Positions 10,571 through 27,511 of a DNA stretch of 64,000 bases are shown here, one piece after another (the stretch's first letter is position 1; each line of letters begins with the position of its first letter). Under the pieces are notes generated by a model, which saw nothing but the letters and a program-made list of their open reading frames with translations, did not search any database and was not told the DNA's origin. The DNA lies in the NCBI GenBank assembly GCA_964615955.1, contig CAZTUG010000003.1, forward strand, positions 1,226-65,225, read 5' to 3'. The stretch is from an uncultured Roseicyclus sp. GTDB taxonomy: Bacteria; Pseudomonadota; Alphaproteobacteria; Rhodobacterales; Rhodobacteraceae. The translations under genes were made by a program, and so were the position numbers.

Positions 10571-10587
10571 GAGTGCAAGGAGTAACC

Positions 10588-16338: not shown

Positions 16339-18023
16339 GCCAGGCAGATCCGATCACCACCGAAGTCGTCCGCAATTTCGTCATTTCCTGCGCGGAAGAC
16401 ATGAACGCCTCGCTCTGGCGCTCGGCCCATTCGGCGATCATCTACGAGGGCAAGGACAGCGCCGTTGCCTTGATGGACGAACGGGGCAACATGCTGGGCC
16501 AATCCACCGGCGTGCCGCTCTTCATCGGCGCCATCGATGTCTGTGTCCGCCATGTGCAGGACTATTACGGCGATGATATCCACGAAGGCGACATCTTCAT
16601 CATGAACGACAGCTACATGCAGGGCACGCACCTGCATGATGTCACCGCCATCGGCCCCATTTTCCACGAGGGCGAACTGGTCGGTTTTGGCGCGGCGCGG
16701 GCGCATTGGAACGACATCGGCGCGATGGATCCCGGTTCGACCATGTCGTCCACCAACATCTATCAGGAGGGCTTGCGCCTTGGACCGACACGGATCGTGT
16801 CGCGCGGCAAGCCGGTGCGCGAGTGGTACGACCACCTCAAGCTCAACACCCGGCTCGAGGGCGCCACCATCGGCGATCTCGGCGCGCAGATCGCCGCCAT
16901 CCGCACCGGCGAGCGGCGTCTTGGCCAGCTTCTGTCGAAGATCGGAACAAGGACCTACCGCGCCGCTTGCCAGAACATATTCGCGCAGGCGCGCCGGATG
17001 GATCGCGAAGCCATCGCCGCGATCAAGGACGGAACCTGGAGCCGCGAGGGTTATCTGGACAATGACGGTGTGGGTACCGAACCGGTCAAGGTCAAGCTGA
17101 CGCTCACGGTCCGGGGCGAGGACCTGATCGTCGATCTGACCGGCACGTCGGGGCCGGTCGCAGGGTCGGTCAATTGTGGCGCAAGCCAGACGGAGTCGCT
17201 GCTGCGACTGGCCTACAAGACGATGATCTCGCCCGAACGCGCGATCACCGGCGGCTCCTTCGAGACGATGACGGTCGTGCTGCCAGACGATTGCATGTTC
17301 AACGCCGGTGAACCTGCCGCCTGCGAATGGTATTTCACCGGGCTGGGTCTTCTGGCCGACCTTTTCATCTCCTGCCTCGGCGAAGCGATGCCAGAGCGCT
17401 CGACCGCCGCGCATTACGGCGACTCCATGGTCGTGGGCTTCTTCTCCGTCGACCCCAGGCGCGGACAGTGGATCTCGATCGAGCCGACCGCCGGAGGCTG
17501 GGGCGGGCGCCACGACAGCGATGGCGAAAGCGCGCTGATCAACCTTGTCAACGGCGGTTTCCGCAACATCCCCGCCGAGGTGATGGAGACGAAGTTTCCG
17601 GTGCGGCTGGAGGAATTCGCGATCCGTACCGACAGCGCCGGGCCGGGCAGGCATCGCGGCGGCTGCGGCGTGGTGCGGCGTTACAAGATGCTGGAGGATT
17701 GCCATGGCGCGATCTGGTTCGAGCGCTCGAAGACGCCCGCCTGGGGCCTGAACGGCGGCGGCGACGGCATGGGGCCGGAGGTCACGGTCAGCTTTCCCGA
17801 CGGCGTCGTGGAAGACCCGCTCAAGATGCGCGCGCGCGCCTTGCCGGCCGGAACCATCGTCGAAACCAGGACCGGCGGCGGTGGTGGCAATGGCGATCCG
17901 CTAGAGCGCGATGTCGCGGCGGTGGCGCGCGACGTGGCCCGGGGTCTCGTAAGCCGCGAGGCGGCCGCACGGGATTACGGTGTGACCGTCACCAGCGATG
18001 GCGAAGCGACGCGCGCCGGATGA
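16335..18023 (+). CDS. hyuB: hydantoinase B/oxoprolinase family protein, B subunit
   Basis: 562 aa. DPITTEVVRNFV and NDSYMQGTHLHDV motifs. ATGA overlap with hyuA. Confidence 0.9.
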   Translation: MSQADPITTEVVRNFVISCAEDMNASLWRSAHSAIIYEGKDSAVALMDERGNMLGQSTGVPLFIGAIDVCVRHVQDYYGDDIHEGDIFIMNDSYMQGTHLHDVTAIGPIFHEGELVGFGAARAHWNDIGAMDPGSTMSSTNIYQEGLRLGPTRIVSRGKPVREWYDHLKLNTRLEGATIGDLGAQIAAIRTGERRLGQLLSKIGTRTYRAACQNIFAQARRMDREAIAAIKDGTWSREGYLDNDGVGTEPVKVKLTLTVRGEDLIVDLTGTSGPVAGSVNCGASQTESLLRLAYKTMISPERAITGGSFETMTVVLPDDCMFNAGEPAACEWYFTGLGLLADLFISCLGEAMPERSTAAHYGDSMVVGFFSVDPRRGQWISIEPTAGGWGGRHDSDGESALINLVNGGFRNIPAEVMETKFPVRLEEFAIRTDSAGPGRHRGGCGVVRRYKMLEDCHGAIWFERSKTPAWGLNGGGDGMGPEVTVSFPDGVVEDPLKMRARALPAGTIVETRTGGGGGNGDPLERDVAAVARDVARGLVSREAAARDYGVTVTSDGEATRAG

Positions 18024-19525
18024 CCGAGCCACTGCTTTCGGCCCGGGATATCGGCGTGCGCTTTGGCGATATCGACGTGCTGTCCGGGGTGGATATCGAC
18101 ATCCGGCCCGGCGAGATCCACGGGCTGATCGGTGAGAACGGCGCGGGGAAATCCACGTTGGGAAAGGTTCTGGGCGGCTTTTACCGCGCAACCCATGGCA
18201 CGATCGCCGTCGCGGGGCGGCGGCAGGATCGCTGGGACACGCCCACGGCACTGGCCAACAGTGTCGCGATCATGCACCAGGAATTGCAGCTGGTGCCCGC
18301 GCTGACGGTCGCGCAAAACGTCTTCCTCGGGCTAGAGGACAACCGCCTCGGCGTGCTGCGCGGGACCGAAGCCACGCGTCTTGCGGCGCTGATGGAACAA
18401 AGCGGCCTGTTCCTGACGCCCGAGGCGCGCGCCGCCAGCCTGACGATCGCCGAGCAGCAGAAAATCGAGATCCTGCGCGCGCTTGCCCGGCGGGCACGGT
18501 TGATCGTGATGGACGAGCCGACCGCGTCGCTGTCGAAAACCGAGATCGACCAATTGCACCGGATCATGCGGAAGCTGCGCGACGAGGGGCGGTCGGTCGT
18601 CTACGTCACGCATTTCCTGAACGACATTCTCGACGTCACTGACCGGGTCACCGTGCTGCGCAACGGTCGCAAGGTGCATACGCGCGACACGTCGGGCGAG
18701 AGCAAGGAAACGCTCATTTCCGCGATGTTGGGAACGTCGAAGACCGAGACGCTGTATCCTGAGAAGACTTACGATTTCGGCCCGGTCGCGCTGTCCGTGC
18801 GCGATCTTGTCTCGCCGAATGGGGCCCGTGTCGACAGGCTCGATATCCGGGCGGGAGAGATCGTCGGCTTCGCCGGGCTGGTCGGCGCCGGCCGGACCGA
18901 GATTGCGCGCGCCATCATCGGCGCCGATCCCGCCGCGGGCGTCGTGGAGATCTACGGCAAGCCATTGGCCCGCCGATCCATCACCGAGGCCACCCGGGCG
19001 GGTCTTGCCATGGTCCCCGAAGACCGGCGCGGGCAGGGGTTGGTGATGACCCTGCCGGTTCGCGCCAATATCTCCTTGCCGCATCTGGGTTGGCTTTCGT
19101 CGCGCGGCGTGATGCGCAAGATCCGGGAACGGACGCTTGCCAAAGGCCTGATCGAACAGCTCGACGTGCGCCCGGCCATCGTGGACGGCGACGTGTCGAA
19201 CTATTCCGGCGGCAACCAGCAAAAGGTGCTGATCGGCAAGTGGCTGGCCGGTGCCCCGAAGGTGCTGATCCTCGATGAGCCGTCACGGGGCGTCGATGTT
19301 GGCGCGCGCGAGACCATCCACCGCGAGATCGGACGCCTGGCGCGGGAGGGCGTTGCGATCCTCGTGATCTCCAGCGAGATCGACGAGGTTCTTGGCCTTG
19401 CGACACGCATCTTTCTGGTCGACCGGGGCCGCCTTGTCGATGAAATCGATCCCGACACGGTCGGCGAGGCCGAGGTTCTGGCGGCACTGTTCACGCATCA
19501 AGGCAGGGAAGACGACGCCGCATGA
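18020..19525 (+). CDS. sugar-type ABC transporter ATP-binding protein (two fused ATPase domains)
   Basis: ATG at 18020 overlaps the hyuB stop. Walker A GENGAGKST, signature LSKTEIDQL / SGGNQQK, and two NBDs as in RbsA/MglA. Confidence 0.9.
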   Translation: MTEPLLSARDIGVRFGDIDVLSGVDIDIRPGEIHGLIGENGAGKSTLGKVLGGFYRATHGTIAVAGRRQDRWDTPTALANSVAIMHQELQLVPALTVAQNVFLGLEDNRLGVLRGTEATRLAALMEQSGLFLTPEARAASLTIAEQQKIEILRALARRARLIVMDEPTASLSKTEIDQLHRIMRKLRDEGRSVVYVTHFLNDILDVTDRVTVLRNGRKVHTRDTSGESKETLISAMLGTSKTETLYPEKTYDFGPVALSVRDLVSPNGARVDRLDIRAGEIVGFAGLVGAGRTEIARAIIGADPAAGVVEIYGKPLARRSITEATRAGLAMVPEDRRGQGLVMTLPVRANISLPHLGWLSSRGVMRKIRERTLAKGLIEQLDVRPAIVDGDVSNYSGGNQQKVLIGKWLAGAPKVLILDEPSRGVDVGARETIHREIGRLAREGVAILVISSEIDEVLGLATRIFLVDRGRLVDEIDPDTVGEAEVLAALFTHQGREDDAA

Positions 19526-20457
19526 CCCGGGCACAGATCCTTCATTTCCTGCAGACCTACGCGGTTCTGATCCTGATCGGCCTGCTCATCGTCGTGCTCA
19601 GCCTGTCGTCTGAGAACTTTCTGACGACGCGCAACCTGCTCAACATTCTCAACCAGAACGCACCGCTCGCGATCATGGCTTCGGCGATGACGCTGGTGAT
19701 CATCGTCGGCGGTTTCGACCTGTCGGTCGGGGCGATCTTCGCCGTGGGGTCGGTCACGGCGGCCTGGCTTGCGGTGAATGTCGATCCCTATCTCGGGTTG
19801 CTTCTGGGGCCCTGCGTGGGCCTCCTGTTCGGGATCGCCAACGGCGTCGTCATCACCGCGCTCAAGGTGCATTCGTTTCTCGCGACCATCGCGACGGCCC
19901 TCATCTTCAAGGGTATCGCCATCGCTGTCTCCGACGGGCGGCTGATTTCGGTGCGGATCGACGCGTTCATTTGGCTGGGTCGCGGCACCTTTCTCGGCGT
20001 ATTCAACTCGATCTGGGTCATGATCGGTTTCGCGGTGATCCTGACCTTCCTGTTGACGCAGACCACCTTCGGTCGGCGGGTCTTTTCGGTCGGCGGAAAC
20101 GAACAGGCGGCGATCCTGTCGGGAATCCGCACCGACCGCATCAAGATCGCGGCCTTCGCCATTGCAGGGTTCGCCGCCGGGCTCGCCTCCATCATCACCA
20201 CCTCGCGCGTTGCATTGGGGCAGGCGACCGCCGGCGAGGGGATGGAGCTTCAGGCCATCGCCGCCGTCATCCTTGGCGGCACCAGCATCTATGGCGGCCA
20301 GGGAGCGGTCTGGCGCTCGCTTGCCGGTGTGTTCCTGCTGGCGCTGGTCAACAACGGCTTCAACATTCTCAACATCGATCCGTTCTTCCGCGATCTGACC
20401 ATGGGTCTGATCATTCTTGCTGCAGTGGGGATCTCGGCAATGGGTGCGCGCCGCTGA
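19522..20457 (+). CDS. ABC transporter permease (RbsC/branched-sugar type)
   Basis: 311-aa polytopic protein. The motifs GGFDLSVGAI and VLGGTSIYGGQG are typical of RbsC-like permeases. Confidence 0.9.
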   Translation: MTRAQILHFLQTYAVLILIGLLIVVLSLSSENFLTTRNLLNILNQNAPLAIMASAMTLVIIVGGFDLSVGAIFAVGSVTAAWLAVNVDPYLGLLLGPCVGLLFGIANGVVITALKVHSFLATIATALIFKGIAIAVSDGRLISVRIDAFIWLGRGTFLGVFNSIWVMIGFAVILTFLLTQTTFGRRVFSVGGNEQAAILSGIRTDRIKIAAFAIAGFAAGLASIITTSRVALGQATAGEGMELQAIAAVILGGTSIYGGQGAVWRSLAGVFLLALVNNGFNILNIDPFFRDLTMGLIILAAVGISAMGARR

Positions 20458-20508
20458 TCGGGATATCAACACGCATCAGGAACAAGGTTGGGGGAAGAGG
20501 GACGACAG

Positions 20509-20720
20509 ATCACCACGACGGATCGCGAGTGCGTCTTCGCCCGGCACACCGGCATCGGCGGCCTGCAATTTCTGGATCCAGCCCCCCAAGACGCCGGACC
20601 CGGCGAGGTGCGCCTCAGGGTCGAGGCCTTCGCGCTCAACCGGGACGACATGGGTCGCATGCCGGGGCGCTATTCGGTCAACTTCGGCACCTTGCCCGCC
20701 CGTCTTGAACGCGCTGCCTC
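20509..20720 (+). pseudogene. zinc-type alcohol dehydrogenase/quinone oxidoreductase (MDR) N-terminal fragment
   Basis: ..RECVFARHTGIGGLQFLDPAPQDAGPGEVRLRVEAFALNRDDM.. matches the GroES-like N-terminus of MDR quinone reductases. Similarity is lost after about 70 aa, and no Rossmann domain is seen in any frame up to 21005. Confidence 0.4.
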
Positions 20721-20824
20721 CACCGGTCCCGCCGCGGAGGATCTTGCATTTGGGCCTCCCGCGCGCCGGGATCGCCCGCTGCGCCCTCCCGCACCCAACA
20801 ATCAATGAGATCTTCTCGCGTGAG

Positions 20825-20891
20825 CCCCCCCCCGACCGGAGCCCTCTTGCGTTCCGCACCCGCGCCCCGCGCACGCACCGCCCCCCCCCCC
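20825..20891. repeat. two homopolymeric C tracts (C9 at 20825-20833; C11 at 20881-20891)
   Basis: Counted directly in the sequence. They lie in non-coding or decayed DNA between convergent genes. Confidence 0.9.
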
Positions 20892-21005
20892 GGCACCGCC
20901 GCGCGAGACCACGGCGTCTCGCGCATCGCGATTCTCGGCGATGTCGGATCTCTGCCTGGCGCCGCCAAGCATCGGACCATGCTGCGATCGACATTCGTGA
21001 CGGTG

Positions 21006-22472
21006 TCAATTGCGCAAGGATCCACGATCATCCGTTTCGGGTTCTGCCGTTGCCACGCCCCAGACCGCCACGTTCAGCGGCAACACCCAGTCATCCGACC
21101 TTGCATATGCCAGATCGACGGCCGTGAGGTCGACCTCCGGGTCGACAAACAACTGTTCCGGGCGACCGTTCAGGGATTTCCAGATCTCGGCGCGAACCTC
21201 CACATCGCCATGGCCTGCATTGCGCCAGACCTCCTCCAGATGGGCTGCGAACTGGTGGATCATGTCCGAGCGGACCAGCATCTTGCCGGCCTGCCGCGCG
21301 GACAGGTATTCGGTCGGATCGACCGCCCAGACCTGATCGCCGGAAACCACGTAGAACACACCTTCGGCGCGGCGATCGTAGATCCGCATCCGCCACGAAA
21401 ACCGGTGGCCGTCGCCGCTCCAGCGAACCTCGGTCGGGAAGACGGCGGCGCGCAGCGGCAGCGCCACCTGCACACAGACCCAGCCGACCATGGCGACAAG
21501 GGCCGCCATCGGGATCAGACGGACCGGGCAAGACGCTTGCGTCACCGTGGTTGCGGGAAGCGCGGAGAGATCCTCCACCCGGCCATGCAGCCAGCGCGCG
21601 ACCCCGCGCGGCCAGTCGGGCGCAAAGAAGATCGTCGTCGCGGCGATGGTCAGCCATGGAAAGATGCCGATGTTGAAGAAGGCTGCGTTGGCGCTGTGGA
21701 AACAGCAATAGACAAGGAAGGTTGCCAGCCGCGTCCGCCGCCAGAGCAGAAGCGGTGCGCCAAGGACGTGCAGGGCGACGGTGGCCCACGCTCCCGCGAT
21801 GATGACCCAGTCGAACTGGAACAGGACTCCGAAGGGGAAATCCCCCGCCAGCGGTCGAAGCCAGAGCCCAAGCGGTTCGCCCGCCAGCCAGTCGGGCGTC
21901 AGTTTCACGAGGCCCGCGAAGATCAGCATGATCTCCATCTGCGTCCTGAGGATCGCGACCGACGCATAAGGCACCGATGTGCCGCGCACCCGGGAAAACA
22001 GCCATGCATCCAGTGACAAGGCCCTGTGCGCCGGCAGGAAGCACATCAGGATCAGGAACAGGATGACGAGGTAGAAGTGGTTGAGGTATTCCGCCTTGTC
22101 GAGCAGGAAGAAGTAGCTGAACAGCACCGTCAACACGACGATCGAGACGCGGTAGAACAGCCCCAGCATCACCAGCGCCGCCGAAAGGCCGACCAGCAGC
22201 CAGGCAACATGGATCCATGGCTCGGGAAGGGGCGTGACCCAGCCGAAACCGGCATAGGTGAAGTGGAACTCCGGCTCGACCCAGTAGCGATAGACACGGT
22301 CGTGGCGGATGAAGCGCCAGCAATCCACGACCATAAGCGCGCCCAGAGCGATGCGGAAGACCGCAAGCGACAGCGGCGATACCGGTCGGGACAGCACGGC
22401 GCGCAGGCGTTGGGCTTTGCCTGGCGCATCGGTGATGCGGTCGGCGGTTCGGGGATCGGCGAAGGTCGTCAT
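21006..22472 (-). CDS. HTTM domain protein, vitamin K-dependent gamma-carboxylase-like (HTTM plus lumenal/periplasmic domain)
   Basis: ATG at 22472, with GGGAGA 7 nt upstream. LAVFRIALGALMVVDCWRFI...FHFTYAGFGWV...LDKAEYLNHFYLVILFLILMCFLP is the HTTM signature. The C-terminal ~200 aa contain WSGDGHRFSWRMRIYDR, as in the VKGC lumenal domain. Confidence 0.85.
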   Translation of the reverse strand: MTTFADPRTADRITDAPGKAQRLRAVLSRPVSPLSLAVFRIALGALMVVDCWRFIRHDRVYRYWVEPEFHFTYAGFGWVTPLPEPWIHVAWLLVGLSAALVMLGLFYRVSIVVLTVLFSYFFLLDKAEYLNHFYLVILFLILMCFLPAHRALSLDAWLFSRVRGTSVPYASVAILRTQMEIMLIFAGLVKLTPDWLAGEPLGLWLRPLAGDFPFGVLFQFDWVIIAGAWATVALHVLGAPLLLWRRTRLATFLVYCCFHSANAAFFNIGIFPWLTIAATTIFFAPDWPRGVARWLHGRVEDLSALPATTVTQASCPVRLIPMAALVAMVGWVCVQVALPLRAAVFPTEVRWSGDGHRFSWRMRIYDRRAEGVFYVVSGDQVWAVDPTEYLSARQAGKMLVRSDMIHQFAAHLEEVWRNAGHGDVEVRAEIWKSLNGRPEQLFVDPEVDLTAVDLAYARSDDWVLPLNVAVWGVATAEPETDDRGSLRN

Positions 22473-22501
22473 GGCATGTCTCCCGTTTTCGGATCTCACG
22501 G

Positions 22502-22527
22502 GGAATTACGCGCCAGGTCGCGCGTTA
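22502..22527 (+). promoter_or_regulatory. ECF-type promoter candidate GGAAT-N16-CGTTA(ATCC) upstream of the DCC/poly-Asp operon
   Basis: -35 GGAAT at 22502-22506, a 16-nt spacer, and -10 CGTTA at 22523-22527. It is embedded in the imperfect palindrome GGAATTACGCGC-N6-GCGCGTTAATCC, so the opposite strand reads GGATT-N16-CGTAA towards the HTTM gene. Nearly the same motif occurs at 25635-25663. Confidence 0.45.
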
Positions 22528-22562
22528 ATCCCCCAGACATGTTGAAAATCTGGAGTCCGTTG

Positions 22563-22976
22563 ATGTCTGATCAGGCCCTGACGATCATTTACGATGGCCA
22601 ATGCCCATTCTGCGCTTCCTATGTCGCCATGGTGCAATTGAAAAAGACTGTGGGGCAAGTGGTGCTGGTCGATGCCAGAAGCGACGATCCGCGCGTGACC
22701 GCTTCGGTCGAGGCGGGCCACGACCTCGACCGCGGCATGGTGGTGCTGTGGCATGACGAGACATTCTTCGGTGATCGGGCAGTGCACTTGCTGGCCACGC
22801 TGACCGCCGCGGATGGCGGGATCGGCAGTCGCCTGCAACGGGCGGTCTTCCGCTCGCCTCGACGCGCGGCCCGGATCTATCCCGTTCTTGCGTGGGGGCG
22901 CCGCGCCTTTCTGCGGCTGATCGGGCGGCGGCCGATTGCCGGGCACCGAAAAGAAACTTCTGCCGGACGGGAATAG
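22563..22976 (+). CDS. DCC1-like thiol-disulfide oxidoreductase family protein (DUF393)
   Basis: MSDQALTIIYDGQCPFCASYV carries the family CxxC motif. ATG at 22563 has GGAG 8 nt upstream; an alternative ATG at 22539 would sit almost on the predicted -10. The first 170 aa of track ORF 22026.. are antisense to the HTTM gene. Confidence 0.85.
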   Translation: MSDQALTIIYDGQCPFCASYVAMVQLKKTVGQVVLVDARSDDPRVTASVEAGHDLDRGMVVLWHDETFFGDRAVHLLATLTAADGGIGSRLQRAVFRSPRRAARIYPVLAWGRRAFLRLIGRRPIAGHRKETSAGRE

Positions 22977-23039
22977 CCTCGGGTCTCGCCCGTTTTATGT
23001 CCGAGGCCCGACTGGCGGGTCCGAGCGAAAGGAAACCAC

Positions 23040-23303
23040 ATGACACATATGAAAACCCTGCTTGCGGCCACTGTGGCCGTCACGGCCCTGATGTCGGCAC
23101 CCCAGCCTGCACAAGCGCAATCCGGTGACCCGTTCCTGCGGTTGCTCAATTCGATGCTTCCGAACGCGCAGATGCGTCCGTCGCGCGGCGGCTGGGACGA
23201 CGATGACGACAATGGCCGCGGCAATTGGAACGACGACGACGACGATCGCGGTGGCCGCGACGACGACGACGATGACGGTCGTGGCAATGATGACGACGAC
23301 TGA
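23040..23303 (+). CDS. small secreted poly-Asp repeat protein
   Basis: 87 aa with RBS AAGGA. Signal peptide MTHMKTLLAATVAVTALMSAPQPAQA, then a tail WDDDDDNGRGNWNDDDDDRGGRDDDDDDGRGNDDDD. Same strand as the DCC gene and 63 nt downstream of it. Confidence 0.7.
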   Translation: MTHMKTLLAATVAVTALMSAPQPAQAQSGDPFLRLLNSMLPNAQMRPSRGGWDDDDDNGRGNWNDDDDDRGGRDDDDDDGRGNDDDD

Positions 23304-23351
23304 GCTGTCGGCACCGACTTCCCAGACTTCAACCAGCGACAGGTTCCCAAT

Positions 23352-23759
23352 ATGAAACCCATTTATCTTCTGCTTCCTGCCAGCGTCACGGCGCTGATGC
23401 TGCTCTCCACCTCGATCCACGCGCAAGCCGTGCGGTTCTCGGACGTGGACACCGACGGCAATGGCCGTCTGTCCTATTCCGAGCTGCAAGCCGCCTTCGG
23501 AACCAGCGCCGCCGATCGGATCTGGACGCGCAACAATGGCACCGAGATCAGCCGCGACGACATTCGCGCCATCAACGGAGCCGATGACGACGATGACGAC
23601 GGACGTGGTCTTGACGATGACGACGATGACGACGGACGCGATGACGACGACGATGACGGCGGCCGCGATGACGACGACGATGACGGCGGCCGCGATGACG
23701 ACGACGATGACGGCGGCAACGACGACGACGATGACGGCGGCAACGACGACGATGATTGA
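23352..23759 (+). CDS. secreted EF-hand plus poly-Asp repeat protein
   Basis: 135 aa with signal peptide MKPIYLLLPASVTALMLLSTSIHA. Canonical 12-residue EF loop DTDGNGRLSYSE (about 23448-23483). C-terminal tail ADDDDDDGRGLDDDDDDDGRDDDDDDGGRDDDDDDGGRDDDDDDGGNDDDDDGGNDDDD, encoded by a 27-bp tandem DNA repeat. Confidence 0.75.
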   Translation: MKPIYLLLPASVTALMLLSTSIHAQAVRFSDVDTDGNGRLSYSELQAAFGTSAADRIWTRNNGTEISRDDIRAINGADDDDDDGRGLDDDDDDDGRDDDDDDGGRDDDDDDGGRDDDDDDGGNDDDDDGGNDDDD

Positions 23760-23815
23760 TGCCGAAAGACCGTCATTTTCCTGAATGACCCCGACCGGGA
23801 CGTCCCATCCCCCCG

Positions 23816-23845
23816 CCCCGCACCGCCCCGTGCGGGGCGGTTTTC
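23816..23845 (+). terminator. rho-independent terminator of the DCC/poly-Asp operon
   Basis: CCCCGCAC-cgcccc-GTGCGGGG (8-bp GC stem) followed by CGGTTTTCGTT, 57 nt after the stop at 23759. Confidence 0.6.
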
Positions 23846-24286
23846 GTTCTGGTCTGGCGCAAACCGGCGATGGCCGCACGCTATCCCGCCTTCCCGGCTT
23901 GGGGACATGGCCGGATCGGCAGACTGGCCCAGGTGCATCAATGACCCATTTTGACAGTGGATAACGGCAGGTTCCACGTTCCCGGATCGGGCTTGCGCAG
24001 CCCCGGGGCCGCCTTGATCGCTCAACCAGCCGGGCGCTCGCGTGCCGGCGCAACCGACACGATCCAGCCCCGGGCAGAGGGTTGCGGTCGCTCGCTGGCC
24101 GTCACCCATGACCCAGGACGCACCCTGCCAGCATCCGATGCACGTGACTGGGGCTGGGGGCTGGGGACCGGGGCCGTGGACCCTGGCGCACGTCGCGCGA
24201 AAGTGGGTGCCGGTCTTGCGCATCTCGGACGCGCGCGATCAAAAGGGTGGCGTGGCTCGCGTGACCGCGGAAGAACGCGGCACGCC

Positions 24287-25069
24287 CTAACCGCCGAGAG
24301 CCGACAGGCGCGCGGCTTCTTCCTCGGGCGAAAGGGTGGGCCCGGCGCCAATGGCGTCGAGGTAGGTATCCAGCGTCTCAAGGGAAGAGGCCGGGGCATA
24401 GCCCGTGTCATCCAAACCCGACGACACCAGGGCAAAGCGGGTGCGCCATCCCCCTGCCTCGTGGCACACCACCGATACCGAGGTGCCGCTGTCAGGTGCG
24501 TCATATTCGAATTCGCGGCAGAACAGGCCGTCTCTGGTCAGGAACGACGCAATGATCGCCACCTCGCCAGGCCCTGCCGCCCCCCTCTCGCCTGCGGCCA
24601 ACCGGCCCAGGGCGTCTTCGATCCCCGGCGAGTCGAGCAGCGCAAGGCCAGGCCCGTTCCCCGTGTCGGGCCGGATCGCAAGGCTCGCGATGACCCCGCC
24701 GACCGCGCCGACCAGCAATGCGGCGCTGGCGGCAAGAGCCAGCGTGACGCGTGGGCGGGGCGGTGCCGCGGACACGGGAAAAGGCACCACCCGATCGGAG
24801 CCCGCTTCGGGCGCAGCGGTGGCGGGCGCGCCACGGGCGGCGGCCAATGTCGCCTCGACCCGCGCGGCAAGATCGCCCGGGACAGGCGCCTCGGGACGGG
24901 CAGCCCCAAGCGATCCCAAAAGGTCGCCGGTCTGCCGGAACATGGCGATCCGCGCCGCCAACGCGTCATCGGCGGCCTCTGCTTCGGCCACGCGCTGCGC
25001 CGCCGCGCGGTCGAGCTCCCCGTCGGCATAGGCCATCAGTGTTTCGTCGTCGAAATCGGTCGGGTTCAT
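24287..25069 (-). CDS. anti-sigma factor (single-pass membrane protein)
   Basis: 260 aa. N-terminus FDDETLMAYADGELDRAAAQRV is the typical anti-sigma N-terminal helix. TM segment VTLALAASAALLVGAVGGVIASLAI plus a ~120-aa periplasmic domain. Lies immediately downstream of the ECF sigma gene. Confidence 0.75.
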   Translation of the reverse strand: MNPTDFDDETLMAYADGELDRAAAQRVAEAEAADDALAARIAMFRQTGDLLGSLGAARPEAPVPGDLAARVEATLAAARGAPATAAPEAGSDRVVPFPVSAAPPRPRVTLALAASAALLVGAVGGVIASLAIRPDTGNGPGLALLDSPGIEDALGRLAAGERGAAGPGEVAIIASFLTRDGLFCREFEYDAPDSGTSVSVVCHEAGGWRTRFALVSSGLDDTGYAPASSLETLDTYLDAIGAGPTLSPEEEAARLSALGG

Positions 25070-25111
25070 TGCGTGTCACTCCTTGCCCCTCACGGATTAA
25101 CGCATGACGGA

Positions 25112-25603
25112 TCAGGTTATTCCCAGTTTTTCCGCCAGCGCCACACGGCCGCGCGCGAGGCGGCTCATCACGGTGCCCTTCGGGATACCGAGGATCTCGG
25201 CGGTTTCGGCGTAAGACATCTCCTCGAAACAGACGAGGGCGATGATCTCTTGATGTTCCGGGGCCAGCGTGGCCAGTGCGGCCTCGGTCTTCTGCAGCAT
25301 CAGGGTGCTTTCGGTCACGCGCGGACCATCGACCATCGCTGCTTCGGGCACATCGAAGATATCCACCTCCGTGCCGCGCGTCGCGAAGCGGCGGGTCTGG
25401 TCGATCCACGCATTGCGCAGGATGCGGAACAGCCAGGGATCCAGCCGGGTCTCGGGATCGAAGCGGTCACGCGCCACGATCGCCTTCTCGACGGTGATCT
25501 GCACCAGGTCGTCGGCGATGTCGCCCCGACGGCACAGCGACAATGCGAAACGGCGAAGCTTCGGCAGCGCCGCCACCAGATCCCGTTCGAATGCATCCCT
25601 CAT
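25112..25603 (-). CDS. RNA polymerase ECF sigma factor (sigma-70 family, group 4)
   Basis: 163 aa from ATG 25603. Region 2 DIADDLVQITVEKAI...DPWLFRILRNAWID and region 4 SYAETAEILGIPKGTVMSRLARGR. Track ORF 25112..26170 is over-extended (antisense to the S8 gene). Confidence 0.9.
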   Translation of the reverse strand: MRDAFERDLVAALPKLRRFALSLCRRGDIADDLVQITVEKAIVARDRFDPETRLDPWLFRILRNAWIDQTRRFATRGTEVDIFDVPEAAMVDGPRVTESTLMLQKTEAALATLAPEHQEIIALVCFEEMSYAETAEILGIPKGTVMSRLARGRVALAEKLGIT

Positions 25604-25634
25604 TTCCTGCGCCGACCCTTGCCGCGCAGGGCGC

Positions 25635-25660
25635 GGAATAAACCTTTGGTGCAGACGTAA
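25635..25660 (+). promoter_or_regulatory. ECF-type promoter candidate GGAAT-N16-CGTAA(TCC) upstream of the S8 peptidase gene
   Basis: -35 GGAAT at 25635-25639, a 16-nt spacer, and -10 CGTAA at 25656-25660, about 29 nt before the ATG at 25689. Same architecture and flanking ATCC as the motif at 22502-22531. Confidence 0.45.
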
Positions 25661-25688
25661 TCCTTTTGACCATGTTAAACCAGAAGAG

Positions 25689-27071
25689 ATGACCGCGATG
25701 ATGCACCGCCTCTTGTTGATCGTTCCCCTTGCCGCGCTGTTCGTGATCGGACTTTCGGCGGTTCCGTCTTTCGTTGCGGACGGTCGGATGGCCTCGATGG
25801 CGTTTGCCGACGACGACGACGATGGCGGCGGCAACGACGACGATGACGGCGGTGGCGGTGGTGGCGCGGCCGGGGCAACCGACGACGATGAAGGGCGGTT
25901 TCCCGTGTTCGGGAACCGTCCGCGCACGCCGCAGGCTGGCCCAGCCGGCCCGCAGGCACCCGATTTCGCCCCGGACGAGATCGTGACCCTTGCGCTGACC
26001 GAGGCGGATCTTGCCGTGCTTGTGGGGCAGGGCTTCACCGTGCTGGATGAACAGGCGCTGGAAGCGTTAGATACCACGTCCCGCCGTTTGCGCATCCCCA
26101 ACGACCTGACGCTGGACGAGGCACGCGAAGCCGCCCGCGGTGTTCCCAGCGGGCAGGACGCCGACTTCAACCACTATTATCGCTCCGAACAGGCGTTTTC
26201 GTCGAGTTGCCGAGGCGTCGACTGCCCGGCGCGCATCCTTGTGGACTGGCCACTGGACCTGTCGCGCGACGGTGGCTGCGGCAACGGCGTCCGGATCGGG
26301 ATGATCGACACCGGCATCAATGCCGCGCACACCACCTTCACGGGTGCCGATCTGGAGGTGCTGCGGCTGGGCGATGAAGCCTTGCCCGAATCCGGTGCCT
26401 TGCACGGAACCGCCGTCGCGGCTCTTCTGGTGGGCGACCCGGGCTCCCGTTCGCCCGGCCTCGTTCCCGGGGCCAGCCTGATCGCCGTCGATGCCTTCCA
26501 CAGTTCGGGCGGTGACGAACGCACCGATGTCTTCACCTTGCTGTCGGGCCTCGACCATCTGGCGGAGGCCAGGGTGTCGATCATCAACCTGAGCCTCGCC
26601 GGACCGCCCAATGCCGTGCTGGAACGCGCCGTGACGCAGCTGGTGGAAGCCGAGGATATCGTCCTTGTCGCAGCCGTGGGCAATGACGGGCCCGCTGCCG
26701 ATCCGGCCTATCCGGCGGCCTATGCGTCCGTTATCGCCGTGACGGCGGTGGACCGCGACGGCGTGGTCTACCGCCGCGCGATCACCGGCTCGCATGTGGA
26801 TATTGCCGCGCCCGGGGTCGATGTCTGGACCGCCGCCTCGATCAGCGGCGCCCGCCCGAAGACCGGCACGTCCTACGCGGTGCCCTTCGTGACGGCGGCG
26901 GCGGCCATCTTGCGCGATACCCGCCCGGAACTGCGCGCCGCCGAAGTCGCGGCGGCCTTGCAGGCGCTGGCCCGCGATATCGGGGATCCCGGCCCGGACA
27001 ATGTCTATGGCGCGGGGCTGGTGCAATTCGATCCGGTCTGCAGCGACCGGCCCCTGATCCTTCCGGACTGA
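25689..27071 (+). CDS. S8 family serine peptidase (subtilase) with N-terminal signal/anchor and poly-Asp/Gly tract
   Basis: ATG at 25689, in frame with track ORF 25269... Hydrophobic N-terminus MHRLLLIVPLAALFVIGLSAV, then ADDDDDGGGNDDDDGGGGGG. Catalytic triad contexts GMIDTGI (Asp), HGTAVAALL (His) and GTSYAVPFVTAAAA (Ser). Confidence 0.9.
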   Translation: MTAMMHRLLLIVPLAALFVIGLSAVPSFVADGRMASMAFADDDDDGGGNDDDDGGGGGGAAGATDDDEGRFPVFGNRPRTPQAGPAGPQAPDFAPDEIVTLALTEADLAVLVGQGFTVLDEQALEALDTTSRRLRIPNDLTLDEAREAARGVPSGQDADFNHYYRSEQAFSSSCRGVDCPARILVDWPLDLSRDGGCGNGVRIGMIDTGINAAHTTFTGADLEVLRLGDEALPESGALHGTAVAALLVGDPGSRSPGLVPGASLIAVDAFHSSGGDERTDVFTLLSGLDHLAEARVSIINLSLAGPPNAVLERAVTQLVEAEDIVLVAAVGNDGPAADPAYPAAYASVIAVTAVDRDGVVYRRAITGSHVDIAAPGVDVWTAASISGARPKTGTSYAVPFVTAAAAILRDTRPELRAAEVAAALQALARDIGDPGPDNVYGAGLVQFDPVCSDRPLILPD

Positions 27072-27163
27072 AATGGTCCGCCGCCTTGCGGGCGACAGGG
27101 CGCCCGTCATTCATCGAGGGATCATCCCGCCGGTCGCGCGTCCGCCCGCAAGGTCTGTCCGCT

Positions 27164-27511
27164 TCAGCCTGCGCAGTCCCGACACCGGATCAACGTGGGA
27201 TCGAGCTCAAGCCGCTGCTGCCCGATAAATTCGCCGCACTCCTCGCACCAGCCGAATTCACCCGAGTCCATCCGCCGGACGGCGGCCTCAAGCGCCCTGA
27301 TCCGTCCAAGCCGCCGCGTTTGCTGGGCGGCGGCCATGGCCTGTTGTTGCATCGCATCCATTCGGCTGAGCCGGCCGACGCTCTGCTGGTCAAGCTCCAC
27401 GGGCCGACGGTCTGCCGATGTCTGCACGGAGGCCGTGCGCAGGCTCTGCAACTCGTCGCGAAGCCGCGGCAGGAACGTGGTCTTCAAGTGCGCGGGGCCG
27501 CGGTCCGTCAT
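27164..27511 (-). CDS. TraR/DksA family C4-type zinc-finger protein
   Basis: 115 aa. Coiled N-terminal part and C-terminus CEECGEFIGQQRLELDPTLIRCRDC (CxxC-N17-CxxC). Lies 3 nt downstream of the Usp gene. Confidence 0.85.
   Translation of the reverse strand: MTDRGPAHLKTTFLPRLRDELQSLRTASVQTSADRRPVELDQQSVGRLSRMDAMQQQAMAAAQQTRRLGRIRALEAAVRRMDSGEFGWCEECGEFIGQQRLELDPTLIRCRDCAG

What the first reader, a model, noticed from the sequence alone, without database searches (positions are those of the whole stretch)
23040..23759. Two tandem genes for signal-peptide proteins with extreme poly-Asp repeat tails; 27-bp DNA tandem repeat and an EF-hand
Protein 1 tail: WDDDDDNGRGNWNDDDDDRGGRDDDDDDGRGNDDDD. Protein 2 has the EF loop DTDGNGRLSYSE (positions 1,3,5 = D,D,N; G6; L8; E12), then DDDDDDGRGLDDDDDDDGRDDDDDDGGRDDDDDDGGRDDDDDDGGNDDDDDGGNDDDD. 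At DNA level the unit CGCGATGACGACGACGATGACGGCGGC (27 bp) is repeated about 3 times and followed by 24-bp variants (about 23635-23750). That structure is prone to slippage and copy-number variation. Runs of 5-7 Asp punctuated by Gly-Gly-Arg/Asn are reminiscent of eukaryotic biomineralisation and Ca-storage proteins, and are very unusual for bacterial periplasmic proteins. The regular G-G-R punctuation could also be protease recognition sites. A 7-bp-stem hairpin (GCCTCGG..CCGAGGC, 22976-23007) sits between the DCC gene and gene 1.
Basis: partly seen in the sequence, partly recalled or inferred. Interest (0 to 1): 0.7.

Follow-up and report, generated by a model that had tools for sequence, protein, structure and literature searches.

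The report
Secreted poly-aspartate proteins beside bacterial carboxylase
Two real genes encode exported proteins with long aspartate-only tails, and in many Alphaproteobacteria such proteins sit beside, and appear co-regulated with, a bacterial relative of the human vitamin-K-dependent carboxylase, which makes them the first obvious candidate protein clients of that enzyme in bacteria.

Summary
Gene g1 (23040-23303, 87 aa) and gene g2 (23352-23759, 135 aa) both encode a signal peptide followed by a poly-Asp tail. The 27-bp tandem repeat and a real EF-hand are also present.

The two genes are the variable cargo of a conserved alphaproteobacterial module. Its parts are:
- a full-length vitamin-K-carboxylase homologue (HTTM plus lumenal domain)
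- a DCC/DUF393 thiol oxidoreductase
- one or two poly-Asp proteins
- an ECF sigma factor and its anti-sigma factor
- an S8 peptidase that carries its own poly-Asp N-terminus

A poly-Asp protein sits in 22 of 24 informative loci. These come from Paracoccus, Celeribacter, Loktanella, Bosea and a Xanthobacteraceae strain. One further locus has an RTX calcium-binding protein in the same slot.

Each transcription unit is preceded by the same ECF-type promoter motif, GGAATA-N15-CGTW. The window has 3 copies where 0.24 are expected, all inside this locus.

Tail length varies in whole repeat units between close relatives.

My best reading is that these are Sec-exported polyanionic Ca2+-binding proteins under ECF control that are functionally tied to the carboxylase homologue. 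The most novel reading I cannot exclude is that the Asp runs themselves are carboxylated, which has a precedent in MloH.

RefSeq calls the proteins "hypothetical", and I found no paper on them.

The parts
21006..22472 (-). Vitamin-K-dependent gamma-carboxylase homologue (HTTM domain plus VKGC lumenal domain), 488 aa
   Evidence: Pfam HTTM 1.4e-77 and VKGC_lumenal_dom 2.1e-36. phmmer against human GGCX gives E = 2.4e-41 over residues 21-468. K218, N159/H160, H287, N290, F299, W390, S398/W399, M401 and R406 are conserved; D263 and Y395 align with His.
22502..22526 (+). ECF-type promoter-like motif GGAATT-N15-CGTT, 37 nt upstream of the DCC start codon
   Evidence: The same motif occupies the same position in about 18 diverged loci. 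There it overlaps a divergent copy that points at the HTTM gene.
22563..22976 (+). DCC1-like / DUF393 thiol-disulfide oxidoreductase, 137 aa, CPFC motif, no signal peptide
   Evidence: Pfam DCC1-like 1.8e-08; gene calls on matching contigs. HTTM-DCC fusion proteins exist in other bacteria (bioRxiv 10.64898/2026.08.19.745780).
22970..22994 (+). ECF-type promoter-like motif GGAATA-N15-CGTT, 45 nt upstream of g1; presumed promoter of the g1-g2 unit
   Evidence: GGAATA-N15-CGT occurs 3 times in the 64-kb window against 0.24 expected (0 of 100 shuffles reach 3), always in this locus. It is conserved upstream of g1/g2 homologues.
22976..23007 (+). Its inner part (22980-22992 plus TTTTATGT) looks like a weak terminator for DCC
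   Evidence: z = -1.9, marginal. It lies in the spacer of the promoter motif. No comparable stem seen by eye in the homologous sites of L014, L026 and L031; not folded.
23040..23303 (+). g1: signal peptide (23040-23117), conserved motif GDPFLRLLNSML, about 12 aa of linker, Trp, then a poly-Asp tail (23196-23300)
   Evidence: Homologues lie next to HTTM-DCC in L014, L017, L025, L026, L031, L032, L035, L036, L037, L039 and L041. dN/dS = 0.065. AAGGAA ribosome-binding site 7 nt upstream.
23352..23759 (+). g2: signal peptide (23352-23423), EF-hand pair domain, poly-Asp tail
   Evidence: Colinear homologues at 40-57% identity carry the same architecture. AlphaFold2 gives pLDDT above 90 for residues 28-77.
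23448..23483 (+). Canonical 12-residue EF-hand loop DTDGNGRLSYSE
   Evidence: Pfam EF-hand_6 25.2 bits against a cut-off of 25. The top Foldseek matches are all EF-hand pairs.
23583..23756 (+). Poly-Asp tail of g2 (40 Asp in 58 residues). The 27-bp tandem array lies at 23619-23752
   Evidence: Length variants differ by multiples of 9 aa.
23813..23850 (+). Intrinsic terminator closing the g1-g2 unit (11-bp stem with 10 G-C pairs, then TTTTCGTTCT)
24287..25069 (-). Transmembrane anti-sigma factor, 260 aa, with a conserved periplasmic domain (FCREFE...VSV.C...YAPASS)
   Evidence: Weak hits to RseA_N and to NCBIfam anti-sigma models. Conserved in the module.
25099..25123 (-). Promoter-like motif GGAATA-N15-CGTT, 29 nt upstream of the anti-sigma gene, inside the 3' end of the ECF gene
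25112..25603 (-). ECF sigma factor, 163 aa
   Evidence: Pfam Sigma70_r2 1e-14 and Sigma70_r4_2 9.7e-16. TIGR02937 89 bits against a cut-off of 42.9.
25635..25659 (+). Promoter-like motif GGAATA-N15-CGTA(ATCC), 38 nt upstream of the S8 start codon
25698..27071 (+). S8 serine peptidase, 457 aa. A poly-Asp/Gly tract (25809-25892, AFA|DDDDDGGGNDDDDGGGGGG...DDDE) follows directly after the signal sequence
   Evidence: Pfam Peptidase_S8 2.1e-31; sequence. The S8 of every related locus has the same tract, for example AWADDDDDDGGRDDDDDDDDDGGGRDDDDDDD in L016.

Best explanation
g1 and g2 are co-transcribed genes for Sec-exported, largely disordered polyanionic proteins.

- g1 has a short conserved amphipathic motif followed by Trp-punctuated Asp runs.
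- g2 has a compact EF-hand pair domain with one canonical Ca2+ loop, followed by D6-GGR repeats.

They are the variable cargo of a conserved alphaproteobacterial module. The module comprises a vitamin-K-carboxylase-like membrane enzyme, a DCC/DUF393 redox partner, the poly-Asp protein(s), an ECF sigma factor, its anti-sigma factor, and an S8 peptidase with its own poly-Asp N-terminus.

Proposed mechanism:
1. An envelope signal releases the ECF sigma factor from the transmembrane anti-sigma factor (inferred).
2. The sigma factor fires the shared GGAATA-N15-CGTW promoters in front of HTTM, DCC, g1-g2, the anti-sigma gene and S8. The motif and its positions are shown. Which sigma factor uses it is inferred.
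3. The poly-Asp proteins are exported, and their signal peptides are cleaved at AQA|Q and IHA|Q (inferred from sequence).
4. In the periplasm or at the cell surface, the Asp runs bind Ca2+ or other divalent cations, or Ca-mineral surfaces, at high capacity and low affinity. The EF-hand of g2 adds one specific site (inferred from composition and fold).
5. The carboxylase homologue, whose catalytic side should face the periplasm by homology with GGCX, works on or with these Asp-rich clients. The genetic linkage is shown; the chemistry is not.

The 27-bp DNA repeats let tail length change in whole units between strains.
For: The genes are real:
- The frames, signal peptides, EF-hand and terminal Asp run (mostly ...NDDDD or DDDDD) are conserved in 27 diverged homologues.
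- dN/dS is 0.07-0.36.
- A ribosome-binding site, an upstream promoter motif and a strong terminator flank the unit.

EF-hand:
- Pfam gives 25.2 bits against a cut-off of 25.
- AlphaFold2 gives pLDDT above 90 with a helix-loop-helix x2 topology.
- Foldseek's best matches are calmodulin lobes, MCFD2 and an ALG-2-like protein, at rmsd about 2.1 A.

Module:
- The gene set recurs with different flanking genes in the window and in L014, L016, L021-L024, L026, L029-L032, L036, L037, L039, L041, L107 and L108. The set is HTTM(-)/DCC/(g1)/g2/anti-sigma(-)/ECF(-)/S8. Gene order differs in L026, L107 and L108, and short contigs show only part of the set.
- A poly-Asp ORF sits next to HTTM-DCC in 22 of 24 informative loci whose HTTM is at least 59% identical.
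- It is also there where no ECF or S8 gene is adjacent, in Paracoccus caeni L025, in L035, and in the P. albus plasmid L109, where only a short S8 gene lies about 4 kb away.

Calcium theme:
- In L034 the same slot, behind the same promoter motif, holds an RTX GGxGxD-repeat protein instead.

Co-regulation:
- The motif occurs 3 times in the window against 0.24 expected, always in this locus.
- In about 18 loci it lies 4-141 nt upstream of each unit (mostly 10-50 nt), and always in the gene's orientation.

Carboxylase competence:
- K218, N159/H160, F299, W399, M401 and R406 are conserved. Their roles are described in PMC12647623 and PMC13486548.

Precedents:
- A periplasmic EF-hand protein coupled to an ECF sigma factor in Caulobacter (PMC13171946).
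- EfhP of Pseudomonas aeruginosa.
Against: - There is no experimental datum of any kind: no transcript, no peptide and no metal-binding measurement.
- Pfam support for the EF-hand is at threshold, and the second loop of the pair is non-canonical.
- The minimal family members in Hyphomicrobiales have only two Asp runs (77-95 aa). That is little capacity for a buffer.
- One g2-like protein (P0019, L018) stands alone next to trpF/trpB with no module in 9 kb.
- One HTTM locus (L038) has neither DCC nor a poly-Asp gene.
- Assigning the promoter motif to this particular ECF sigma factor is an inference. L025 and L035 carry the motif with no ECF gene nearby.
- No motif copy was found upstream of the ECF gene itself.
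- Seawater-level Mg2+ would compete for the Asp runs.
Confidence: 0.55

Rival explanations
1. Enzyme-substrate pair. The primary role of g1/g2, and of the S8 N-terminus, is to be post-translationally modified by the VKGC-like enzyme. Runs of Asp would be carboxylated to beta-carboxy-aspartate or a related malonate-type residue in the periplasm, driven by quinol oxidation, with DCC as redox helper. Cation binding would then be a consequence of the modification, as in Gla proteins.
For: - Poly-Asp genes are linked to HTTM-DCC in 22 of 24 informative loci across two orders, with three unrelated N-terminal domain types but the same Asp-run tails.
- In Bosea and the Xanthobacteraceae strain, the poly-Asp gene lies directly downstream of HTTM.
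- A separate HTTM lineage at 40% identity (L051/L053) has a membrane-anchored protein with CVWIDDDDSRCFDDDDDNDQGCDDDDF 24-51 bp upstream of HTTM. These are the only very acidic ORFs in about 293,000 ORF residues of the distant-clade loci.
- The catalytic residues of GGCX are conserved.
- MloH, a bacterial VKGC orthologue, carboxylates an aspartyl residue.
- The g1 motif (D)DPFxRLLxSxL plus a 10-15 aa linker before the first Asp run resembles a docking propeptide plus linker (compare).
Against: - No chemistry has been shown.
- MloH acts on a polyketide-peptide intermediate, not on a protein.
- Rhodobacterales and Hyphomicrobiales make ubiquinone rather than menaquinone (own knowledge), so the cofactor is unclear.
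- D263 and Y395 of GGCX are replaced by His.
- The basic 'substrate loop' that I suspected was tuned to poly-Asp is common to all bacterial HTTM clades, including those with no acidic neighbour.
- The RTX replacement in L034 has no Sec signal peptide and would bypass the periplasm.
Confidence: 0.3
2. Protease-centred module. The poly-Asp tails would be inhibitors, chaperones or co-localisation tags for the S8 peptidase, or its substrates. The peptidase and its partners would be brought to the same cation-coated surface by their shared Asp runs.
For: - The S8 of every module carries a poly-Asp tract directly after its signal sequence.
- It shares the promoter motif.
- L040 encodes an in-frame g2-S8 fusion.
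Against: - Poly-Asp genes persist next to HTTM-DCC where no S8 gene is adjacent (L025, L035). In L109 only a short S8 gene lies about 4 kb away. They also persist where S8 is truncated (Bosea).
- Spacer sequences are not conserved, so there is no specific cleavage motif.
- The L040 fusion may be an assembly collapse between similar repeats.
Confidence: 0.08
3. Sensor accessory. g2, or g1, would be a periplasmic Ca2+ sensor that modulates the anti-sigma factor, as proposed for the CaBP-SigV loop in Caulobacter, rather than an effector.
For: - A periplasmic EF-hand protein lies next to an ECF/anti-sigma pair.
- Caulobacter provides a precedent (PMC13171946).
Against: - The promoter motif places g1-g2 downstream of the sigma factor, as a target.
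- g1-type and Bosea-type proteins have no EF-hand.
- Loci without an adjacent ECF pair keep the poly-Asp gene.
Confidence: 0.05
4. Artefact. The ORFs would be spurious products of a GAY-rich simple repeat, or the real gene would lie on the opposite strand (the ORFs at 22995-24053 and 23474-24223 on the minus strand).
For: GAC/GAT repeats are stop-free in all three antisense frames, so long antisense ORFs appear.
Against: - The sense frame is conserved together with its signal peptide, EF-hand, stop codon, ribosome-binding site, promoter motif and terminator.
- dN/dS is well below 1 in the sense frame.
- Two of the three antisense frames carry stops in the g2 N-domain. The stop-free one is less conserved, at 29-40% identity against about 50% in the sense frame.
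Confidence: 0.01

Closest known systems
Periplasmic bacterial EF-hand proteins: EfhP (PA4107) of Pseudomonas aeruginosa and CaBP of Caulobacter vibrioides, the latter coupled to the ECF sigma factor SigV (PMC4053335, PMC9132961, PMC13171946)
   Same: Small proteins with a Sec signal peptide and an EF-hand. In Caulobacter the gene is coupled to an ECF sigma factor in an alphaproteobacterium.
   Different: g2 has one canonical loop rather than two or three, and carries a 58-residue poly-Asp tail. Neither EfhP nor CaBP appeared among the colinear full-length matches to g2. Neither known protein is described as linked to an HTTM/VKGC-DCC pair or an S8 peptidase. g1 has no EF-hand at all.
Vitamin-K-dependent carboxylase (GGCX) with its Gla-protein substrates in animals (PMC12647623)
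   Same: A GGCX homologue with conserved catalytic residues sits next to small secreted acidic Ca-binding-type proteins. The client domain lies on the extracytoplasmic side. A possible docking helix plus linker precedes the acidic run. Several adjacent acidic residues could be modified processively.
   Different: The tails contain Asp and no Glu. No Gla-domain signature or propeptide consensus is present. No modification has been shown. The likely quinone pool is ubiquinone. A DCC/DUF393 partner takes the place of VKOR. The whole set appears to be under ECF control.
MloH, the VKGC orthologue of Streptomyces in malonomycin biosynthesis (Law et al. 2018, cited in PMC12647623, PMC12186529 and bioRxiv 10.64898/2026.08.19.745780)
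   Same: A bacterial HTTM/VKGC-type enzyme whose substrate residue is aspartyl rather than glutamyl.
   Different: MloH acts on a polyketide-nonribosomal-peptide intermediate inside a biosynthetic cluster. Here the candidates are ribosomal, Sec-exported proteins and no biosynthetic cluster is present.
Eukaryotic poly-Asp Ca-storage and biomineralisation proteins, such as the calsequestrin C-terminal tail and mollusc Aspein/Asprich (own knowledge, not tested)
   Same: Runs of 5-10 Asp punctuated by Gly or Ser, intrinsic disorder, and high-capacity low-affinity Ca2+ or mineral binding as the expected behaviour.
   Different: There is no homology: no Pfam hit other than the EF-hand, and no thioredoxin-like domains. 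These proteins are bacterial, 60-110 residues when mature, and genetically tied to a carboxylase homologue.
RTX (GGxGxD nonapeptide) Ca-binding repeat proteins
   Same: Asp/Gly-rich, Ca-binding and secreted. One such protein occupies the g1/g2 slot behind the same promoter motif in L034.
   Different: g1/g2 have no nonapeptide repeat and carry Sec signal peptides rather than a C-terminal type I secretion signal.

Membership tests
EF-hand (g2 N-domain) | 12-residue loop with ligands at positions 1, 3, 5 and 12, Gly at 6 and a hydrophobic residue at 8 | tested here: met
   DTDGNGRLSYSE has D1, D3, N5, G6, L8 and E12. The loop is conserved in homologues; D33, G38, L40 and E44 are invariant.
EF-hand (g2 N-domain) | Profile score at or above the Pfam gathering threshold | tested here: met
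   EF-hand_6 scores 25.2 against 25, which is marginal. EF-hand_1 scores 25.0 against 25.4 and EF-hand_7 scores 23.4 against 30, both below threshold. The full-length protein gives no hit.
EF-hand (g2 N-domain) | Helix-loop-helix pair fold | tested here: met
   AlphaFold2 gives pLDDT above 90 for residues 28-77, with two helix-loop-helix units and paired short strands. The top Foldseek PDB matches are all EF-hand pairs, with probability up to 0.97 and rmsd about 2.1 A, although E is only 0.3 because the domain is small.
EF-hand (g2 N-domain) | Ca2+ binding | not testable with these tools
   Requires 45Ca overlay, ITC or a mobility-shift assay.
Sec-exported proteins (g1, g2) | Cleavable signal peptide with n-, h- and c-regions and a small-x-small cleavage site | tested here: met
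   By inspection only: MTHMK-TLLAATVAVTALMSA-PQPAQA|Q and MKPIY-LLLPASVTALMLLST-SIHA|Q. The feature is conserved in all homologues. No predictor was available.
Vitamin-K-dependent (Gla) substrate proteins | Glu-rich Gla domain | tested here: not met
   The tails of g1 and g2 contain Asp, Gly, Arg, Asn, Trp and Leu but no Glu.
Vitamin-K-dependent (Gla) substrate proteins | Carboxylase-recognition propeptide (conserved hydrophobic positions -16, -10 and -6) about 7-8 residues before the first modified residue | tested here: inconclusive
   g1-type proteins share the amphipathic motif DPFxRLLxSxL followed by a 10-15 aa linker before the first Asp run. There is no sequence match to the animal consensus, and g2 has an EF-hand domain at that position instead.
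VKGC / GGCX family (neighbouring gene 21006-22472) | HTTM transmembrane domain plus lumenal domain | tested here: met
   Pfam E-values of 1.4e-77 and 2.1e-36. E = 2.4e-41 to human GGCX structures.
VKGC / GGCX family (neighbouring gene 21006-22472) | Catalytic and substrate-pocket residues K218, N159/H160, F299, W399, M401, R406, D263 and Y395 | tested here: inconclusive
   K218, N159, H160, H287, N290, F299, W390, S398, W399, M401 and R406 are conserved. D263 and Y395 align with His, and M402 aligns with Arg.
VKGC / GGCX family (neighbouring gene 21006-22472) | Quinol-dependent carboxylation activity | not testable with these tools
   Requires an enzyme assay.
ECF sigma regulon | Sigma-2 and sigma-4 domains with a co-transcribed anti-sigma factor | tested here: met
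   Pfam and TIGR02937 hits. A transmembrane protein with a weak anti-sigma N-domain hit lies directly downstream.
ECF sigma regulon | Shared -35/-10-type promoter in front of the target genes | tested here: met
   GGAATA-N15-CGTW is enriched (3 observed against 0.24 expected), always in the gene's orientation, and conserved before five transcription units in about 18 loci. Which sigma factor reads it has not been shown.
Calsequestrin / Asp-rich biomineralisation proteins | Homologous folded domains (thioredoxin-like repeats and similar) | tested here: not met
   No Pfam or NCBIfam hit other than the EF-hand. The resemblance is compositional only.
RTX repeat proteins | GGxGxDxUx nonapeptide repeats | tested here: not met
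   Absent from g1 and g2. Present in the protein that replaces them in L034.

The most novel reading that the evidence does not exclude
The Asp runs of g1, g2 and the S8 N-terminus would be the natural substrates of the co-regulated vitamin-K-carboxylase homologue. In the periplasm the enzyme, using a respiratory quinol and CO2/bicarbonate with DCC/DUF393 as redox partner, would convert strings of Asp into beta-carboxy-aspartate-type (malonate-like) residues. That would create a bacterial counterpart of Gla proteins. These would be the first ribosomal protein clients of a bacterial VKGC, and a genetically defined source of protein-bound carboxy-aspartate.
Probability: 0.3. Interest if true: 0.92.

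Novelty: new variant of a known kind. Interest (0 to 1): 0.78.

Why it matters
Bacterial homologues of the vitamin-K-dependent carboxylase are widespread. The only substrate I could find in the searchable literature is a small-molecule intermediate, that of MloH. No protein client was reported in anything I found.

This locus gives a concrete and testable candidate. Short exported poly-Asp proteins are genetically and, by promoter motif, transcriptionally tied to the enzyme in cultured strains. Those strains are Paracoccus albus SCSIO 80058 (plasmid p1), Celeribacter persicus, Paracoccus caeni and Bosea sp. Root381.

If the Asp runs are modified, the Gla paradigm extends to bacteria and to a different residue.

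If they are not, the module still matters in three ways. It defines an undescribed ECF-controlled envelope system built around polyanionic Ca-binding proteins, which bears on calcium and mineral handling by marine and saline-lake Rhodobacterales. It offers a natural poly-Asp tag shared by a protease and its partners. It is also a clear case of in-frame repeat-number variation in a secreted protein.

Tried and rejected
1. The word-indexed homology search with the g2 N-domain found only its own cluster. The exhaustive phmmer search was needed to find the family.
2. The genome scan with the 9-sequence alignment failed because no stretch was conserved enough. A 4-sequence alignment worked, but that genome-collection scan returned only 3 loci, all MAGs.
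3. I hypothesised that the carboxylase 'substrate loop' GHRFSWRMRIYDRR is unusually basic because it binds poly-Asp. I rejected this. The same basic loop (W.E.GHRF[SA]W[RH]MKLR.K) occurs in all bacterial HTTM clades, including those with no acidic neighbour.
4. I rejected G-G-R as a protease recognition site, because the spacers are not conserved among homologues.
5. I rejected the hairpin at 22976-23007 as a regulatory element. Its z-score is -1.9, it overlaps the promoter spacer, and I saw no comparable stem by eye in three homologous sites.
6. No Rfam family matches 20500-27500.
7. Pfam and NCBIfam give nothing for g1, the g2 tail, the S8 N-terminal 200 aa or the anti-sigma periplasmic domain.
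8. The main text of the ECF classification paper does not mention S8, carboxylase or calcium contexts, and its supplements are not held.
10. I searched for acidic neighbours of distant HTTM clades (30-48% identity). None turned up except in L051/L053, so the association is not general to all HTTM proteins.
11. Antisense coding was rejected.
12. Literature searches combining HTTM with ECF, and vitamin-K-dependent carboxylase with Proteobacteria, found no description of this module. A search for beta-carboxyaspartic acid returned no paper at all.
Full report
OBSERVATION

g1 is at 23040-23303 (87 aa) and g2 at 23352-23759 (135 aa), and the translations match the quoted ones.

Both proteins start with a typical Sec signal peptide. 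In g1 it is MTHMK / TLLAATVAVTALMSA / PQPAQA|Q. In g2 it is MKPIY / LLLPASVTALMLLST / SIHA|Q.

Tandem Repeats Finder reports a 27-bp period at 23619-23752, with 5.1 copies and 89% matches, and a 30-bp period in g1. Read directly, the g2 array holds three exact 27-bp R-D6-G-G units. An N-D5-G-G unit and the terminal N-D4-stop follow.

g1 has an AAGGAA ribosome-binding site. The pair is closed by a strong intrinsic terminator at 23813-23840 followed by TTTTCGTTCT. No Rfam family matches the region.

The hairpin at 22976-23007 exists but is only marginally more stable than shuffled sequence (z = -1.9).

THE GENES ARE REAL AND FORM FAMILIES

The word-indexed protein search found only g2's own cluster. 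An exhaustive phmmer search of 1.8 billion representatives with the g2 N-domain found colinear homologues at 40-53% identity. Nearly all have the same three-part build: signal peptide, an EF-hand domain of about 50 residues, and a poly-Asp tail.

Across the loci I fetched, I collected 16 g2-type and 11 g1-type proteins.
- g1-type proteins share a short motif directly after the signal peptide, (G/D)DPFxRLLxSxL. A 10-15 residue linker follows, often ending in Trp, and then the Asp runs.
- Of 26 complete proteins, 15 end in NDDDD and 8 end in DDDDD.

dN/dS in the annotated frame is 0.20-0.36 for the g2 N-domain and 0.065 for g1. Two of the three antisense frames carry stops, and the stop-free one is less conserved. 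The long antisense ORFs are therefore by-products of GAY repeats.

EF-HAND

The full-length protein gives no Pfam hit. The mature N-domain scanned alone scores 25.2 bits on EF-hand_6 (cut-off 25) and 25.0 bits on EF-hand_1.

AlphaFold2, run with nine family members, gives pLDDT above 90 for residues 28-77. The topology is helix-loop-helix twice, with two short paired strands.

The best Foldseek matches in the PDB are all EF-hand pairs, including a calmodulin lobe, MCFD2 and an ALG-2-like protein. rmsd is about 2.1 A over about 50 columns. E-values are weak because the domain is small.

The first loop is canonical and the second is not.

COPY-NUMBER VARIATION

Alleles of g2 with 135, 126, 117 and 109 residues share an identical N-terminus and differ by whole repeat units. 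The shorter alleles sit on contigs under 1.6 kb, so short-read assembly collapse cannot be excluded.

Evidence from more diverged strains is firmer. Loktanella-type proteins have 147, 165 and 183 residues, and another group has 132, 134 and 154 residues. Spacer types also differ between lineages: GGR, GF x5, GGS, GSR and GRRRG.

CONTEXT: A CONSERVED MODULE

The neighbours in the window are as follows:
- a 488-aa protein at 21006-22472 on the minus strand, with Pfam HTTM (1.4e-77) and VKGC_lumenal_dom (2.1e-36)
- a DCC1-like/DUF393 protein with a CPFC motif at 22563-22976
- g1 and g2
- an anti-sigma factor at 24287-25069 on the minus strand
- an ECF sigma factor at 25112-25603 on the minus strand
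- an S8 peptidase at 25698-27071

The S8 peptidase carries AFA|DDDDDGGGNDDDDGGGGGG directly after its signal sequence.

The same gene set recurs in these places, with different flanking genes:
- metagenome contigs and MAGs of Rhodobacterales, including a Loktanella MAG
- Celeribacter persicus
- Bosea sp. Root381
- a Xanthobacteraceae isolate

Two Paracoccus loci keep only the HTTM-DCC-poly-Asp core. In P. caeni no ECF or S8 gene is nearby. On plasmid p1 of P. albus SCSIO 80058 only a short S8 gene lies about 4 kb away, and RefSeq calls the g2 homologue WP_271073463.1 a hypothetical protein.

I also scanned metagenomes with an alignment of the HTTM protein, which returned 80 loci from 100% down to 30% identity. 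Adding these to the loci above gives the following counts:
- Among loci whose HTTM is at least 59% identical and that have enough sequence, 22 carry a poly-Asp signal-peptide gene next to HTTM-DCC.
- One locus (L034) has an RTX GGxGxD-repeat protein in that slot.
- One locus (L038) has neither.

The poly-Asp gene stays with HTTM-DCC even where no ECF or S8 gene is adjacent (L025, L035; in L109 only a short S8 gene about 4 kb away). In the Hyphomicrobiales it lies directly downstream of HTTM, with a third, unrelated N-terminal region.

Outside the module, ORFs with at least 45% Asp in a 20-residue window are almost absent: 2 in about 490,000 ORF residues.

In HTTM clades at 30-48% identity I found no DCC, ECF, S8 or acidic neighbour, with one exception. 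In L051/L053 a membrane-anchored protein with CVWIDDDDSRCFDDDDDNDQGCDDDDF lies 24-51 bp upstream of HTTM.

CO-REGULATION

The motif GGAATA-N15-CGT occurs three times in the 64-kb window against 0.24 expected, and 0 of 100 shuffles reach three. The three copies lie:
- 45 nt upstream of g1
- 29 nt upstream of the anti-sigma gene
- 38 nt upstream of S8

A GGAATT variant lies 37 nt upstream of DCC.

In about 18 diverged loci the same motif, extended to CGTWWTCC, precedes five units: HTTM, DCC, the poly-Asp gene (or the RTX gene in L034), the anti-sigma gene and S8. It is always in the gene's orientation and lies 4-141 nt before the start codon.

In the short HTTM-DCC intergenic region the two divergent copies overlap completely and form a palindrome.

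A -35 element of GGAAY type, a 16-nt spacer and a -10 element of CGT type is the usual architecture of ECF promoters (own knowledge). That the module's own sigma factor reads these sites is my inference.

g2 has no motif of its own in the window, so g1-g2 is one transcription unit.

THE CARBOXYLASE HOMOLOGUE

The carboxylase homologue aligns with human GGCX over residues 21-468 at E = 2.4e-41.
- Conserved: K218 (the base that deprotonates the quinol), N159/H160, H287, N290, F299 (CO2 pocket), W390, S398/W399, M401 and R406.
- Changed: D263 and Y395 align with His, and M402 aligns with Arg.

The residue roles come from PMC12647623 and PMC13486548.

The region equivalent to human residues 374-418, which truncated viral epoxidase-only homologues lack, is present here.

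I tested whether its basic character is specific to the poly-Asp clade. It is not.

Two points from the literature matter:
- HTTM and DCC domains are fused in some bacteria, which ties the two functionally.
- The one characterised bacterial orthologue, MloH, carboxylates an aspartyl residue of a natural-product intermediate.

INTERPRETATION

Shown:
- The genes are real.
- The proteins have signal peptides.
- g2 has an EF-hand pair fold with one canonical loop.
- The tails are extreme poly-Asp tracts with repeat-number variation.
- The genes belong to a conserved module with a VKGC homologue, DCC, an ECF/anti-sigma pair and a poly-Asp-tagged S8 peptidase.
- One promoter motif precedes all the units.

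Inferred:
- The proteins are exported and bind Ca2+ or other divalent cations, or Ca-mineral surfaces, at high capacity.
- The ECF sigma factor drives the regulon in response to an envelope signal.
- The carboxylase homologue acts on or with the Asp-rich proteins.

The RTX replacement in L034 favours calcium binding as the common theme.

Three observations favour an enzyme-client relation:
- the strict HTTM-DCC linkage
- the three unrelated N-terminal domains carrying the same kind of tail
- the independent L051/L053 case

I give the composite reading a confidence of 0.55. That reading is exported Ca-binding polyanions under ECF control that are functionally coupled to the carboxylase. I give the specific claim that the Asp runs are carboxylated a probability of about 0.3.

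Points against, or still open:
- There are no experimental data.
- The quinone is unknown, because these orders make ubiquinone (own knowledge).
- D263 and Y395 are substituted.
- One g2-like gene stands alone (L018).
- One HTTM gene stands alone (L038).

COMPARISON WITH KNOWN SYSTEMS

- Closest in kind are the periplasmic EF-hand proteins EfhP and Caulobacter CaBP. CaBP is also coupled to an ECF sigma factor. Neither is described with a poly-Asp tail or an HTTM partner.
- The GGCX/Gla-protein system is the closest functional analogy, but g1/g2 fail its defining feature because they contain no Glu.
- MloH supplies the precedent for Asp as the target residue.
- The resemblance to calsequestrin and mollusc Asp-rich proteins is compositional only.

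I found no paper describing this module.

VERDICT

It is a new, unnamed protein family within an undescribed, conserved and apparently co-regulated module. It offers the first concrete candidate protein clients for bacterial vitamin-K-carboxylase homologues, in strains that can be cultured.

Noticed in passing
window 22502-22526 (+) and its reverse complement; L016 9346/9375, L023 2942/2971 and others: The HTTM-DCC intergenic region carries two fully overlapping divergent copies of the promoter motif, which together form a palindrome (GGAATWACG-N11-CGTWATTCC). In the window the copy pointing at HTTM is degenerate (GGATTA).
   Followed up: partly
window 25099-25123 (-): The motif copy that would drive the anti-sigma gene lies inside the 3' end of the ECF gene. 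No copy was found upstream of the ECF gene itself. The sigma factor may therefore induce its inhibitor but not itself.
   Followed up: partly
L040 3621-5639 (-): This ORF is an in-frame fusion of a complete g2-type protein (signal peptide, EF-hand, poly-Asp) to the S8 peptidase. The anti-sigma and ECF genes are missing. The cause is either a real deletion between the poly-Asp-coding direct repeats or an assembly collapse.
   Followed up: partly
L034 about 1650-2560 (-), motif at 2639: An RTX-type GGxGxD nonapeptide-repeat protein of 261 aa, without a Sec signal peptide, occupies the slot between DCC and the anti-sigma gene, behind the same promoter motif. The S8 of that locus still has a poly-Asp/Gly N-terminus.
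   Followed up: partly
L051 1479-2225 and L053 837-1583 (+): In an HTTM lineage only 40% identical and of unknown taxon, a membrane-anchored protein with Cys-flanked Asp runs (CVWIDDDDSRCFDDDDDNDQGCDDDDF) ends 24-51 bp upstream of the HTTM gene.
   Followed up: partly
L026 (Celeribacter persicus QAOH01000004) 6279-6883, 9760-11422, 4146, 6084, 14271: The locus holds fragments of an anti-sigma pseudogene and remnants of an insertion sequence next to HTTM, with a second intact anti-sigma/ECF/S8 set on the other side. Extra motif copies lie before a response regulator, a 97-aa signal-peptide ORF and a 278-aa hydrolase-like ORF.
   Followed up: no
L107 (Bosea sp. Root381) 9798-10639: The S8 gene (172 aa) and the ECF gene (106 aa, region 4 only) are both truncated and abut each other, as if a deletion had removed their divergent 5' halves and the shared promoter region. 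HTTM, DCC, the poly-Asp gene and the anti-sigma gene are intact.
   Followed up: no
L038 477-2596: This HTTM gene (59% identity) follows a two-component system and a copy of the promoter motif. It has no DCC gene and no poly-Asp gene, and is the single clear exception to the linkage.
   Followed up: partly
window 24287-24700 (-) and alignment A4: The periplasmic domain of the anti-sigma factor has an invariant signature (SF...CREFE...V.C...W..R...Y.PAS..L..L) with two conserved Cys. It matches no Pfam or NCBIfam family, and the signal it senses is unknown.
   Followed up: partly
window 13260-20808: Upstream of the module lie a periplasmic binding protein, hydantoinase A and B, an ABC ATPase and a permease, then a 106-aa ORF (20488-20808) that was called as a gene on the matching contigs but has no family.
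   Followed up: no
window 23196-23300 and 23583-23756: Asp codons in the tails are a mix of GAC and GAT (16:4 in g1, 27:13 in g2). The pattern GAT GAC GAC GAC GAT GAC repeats, so the array is a 27-bp repeat rather than a pure trinucleotide run.
   Followed up: partly
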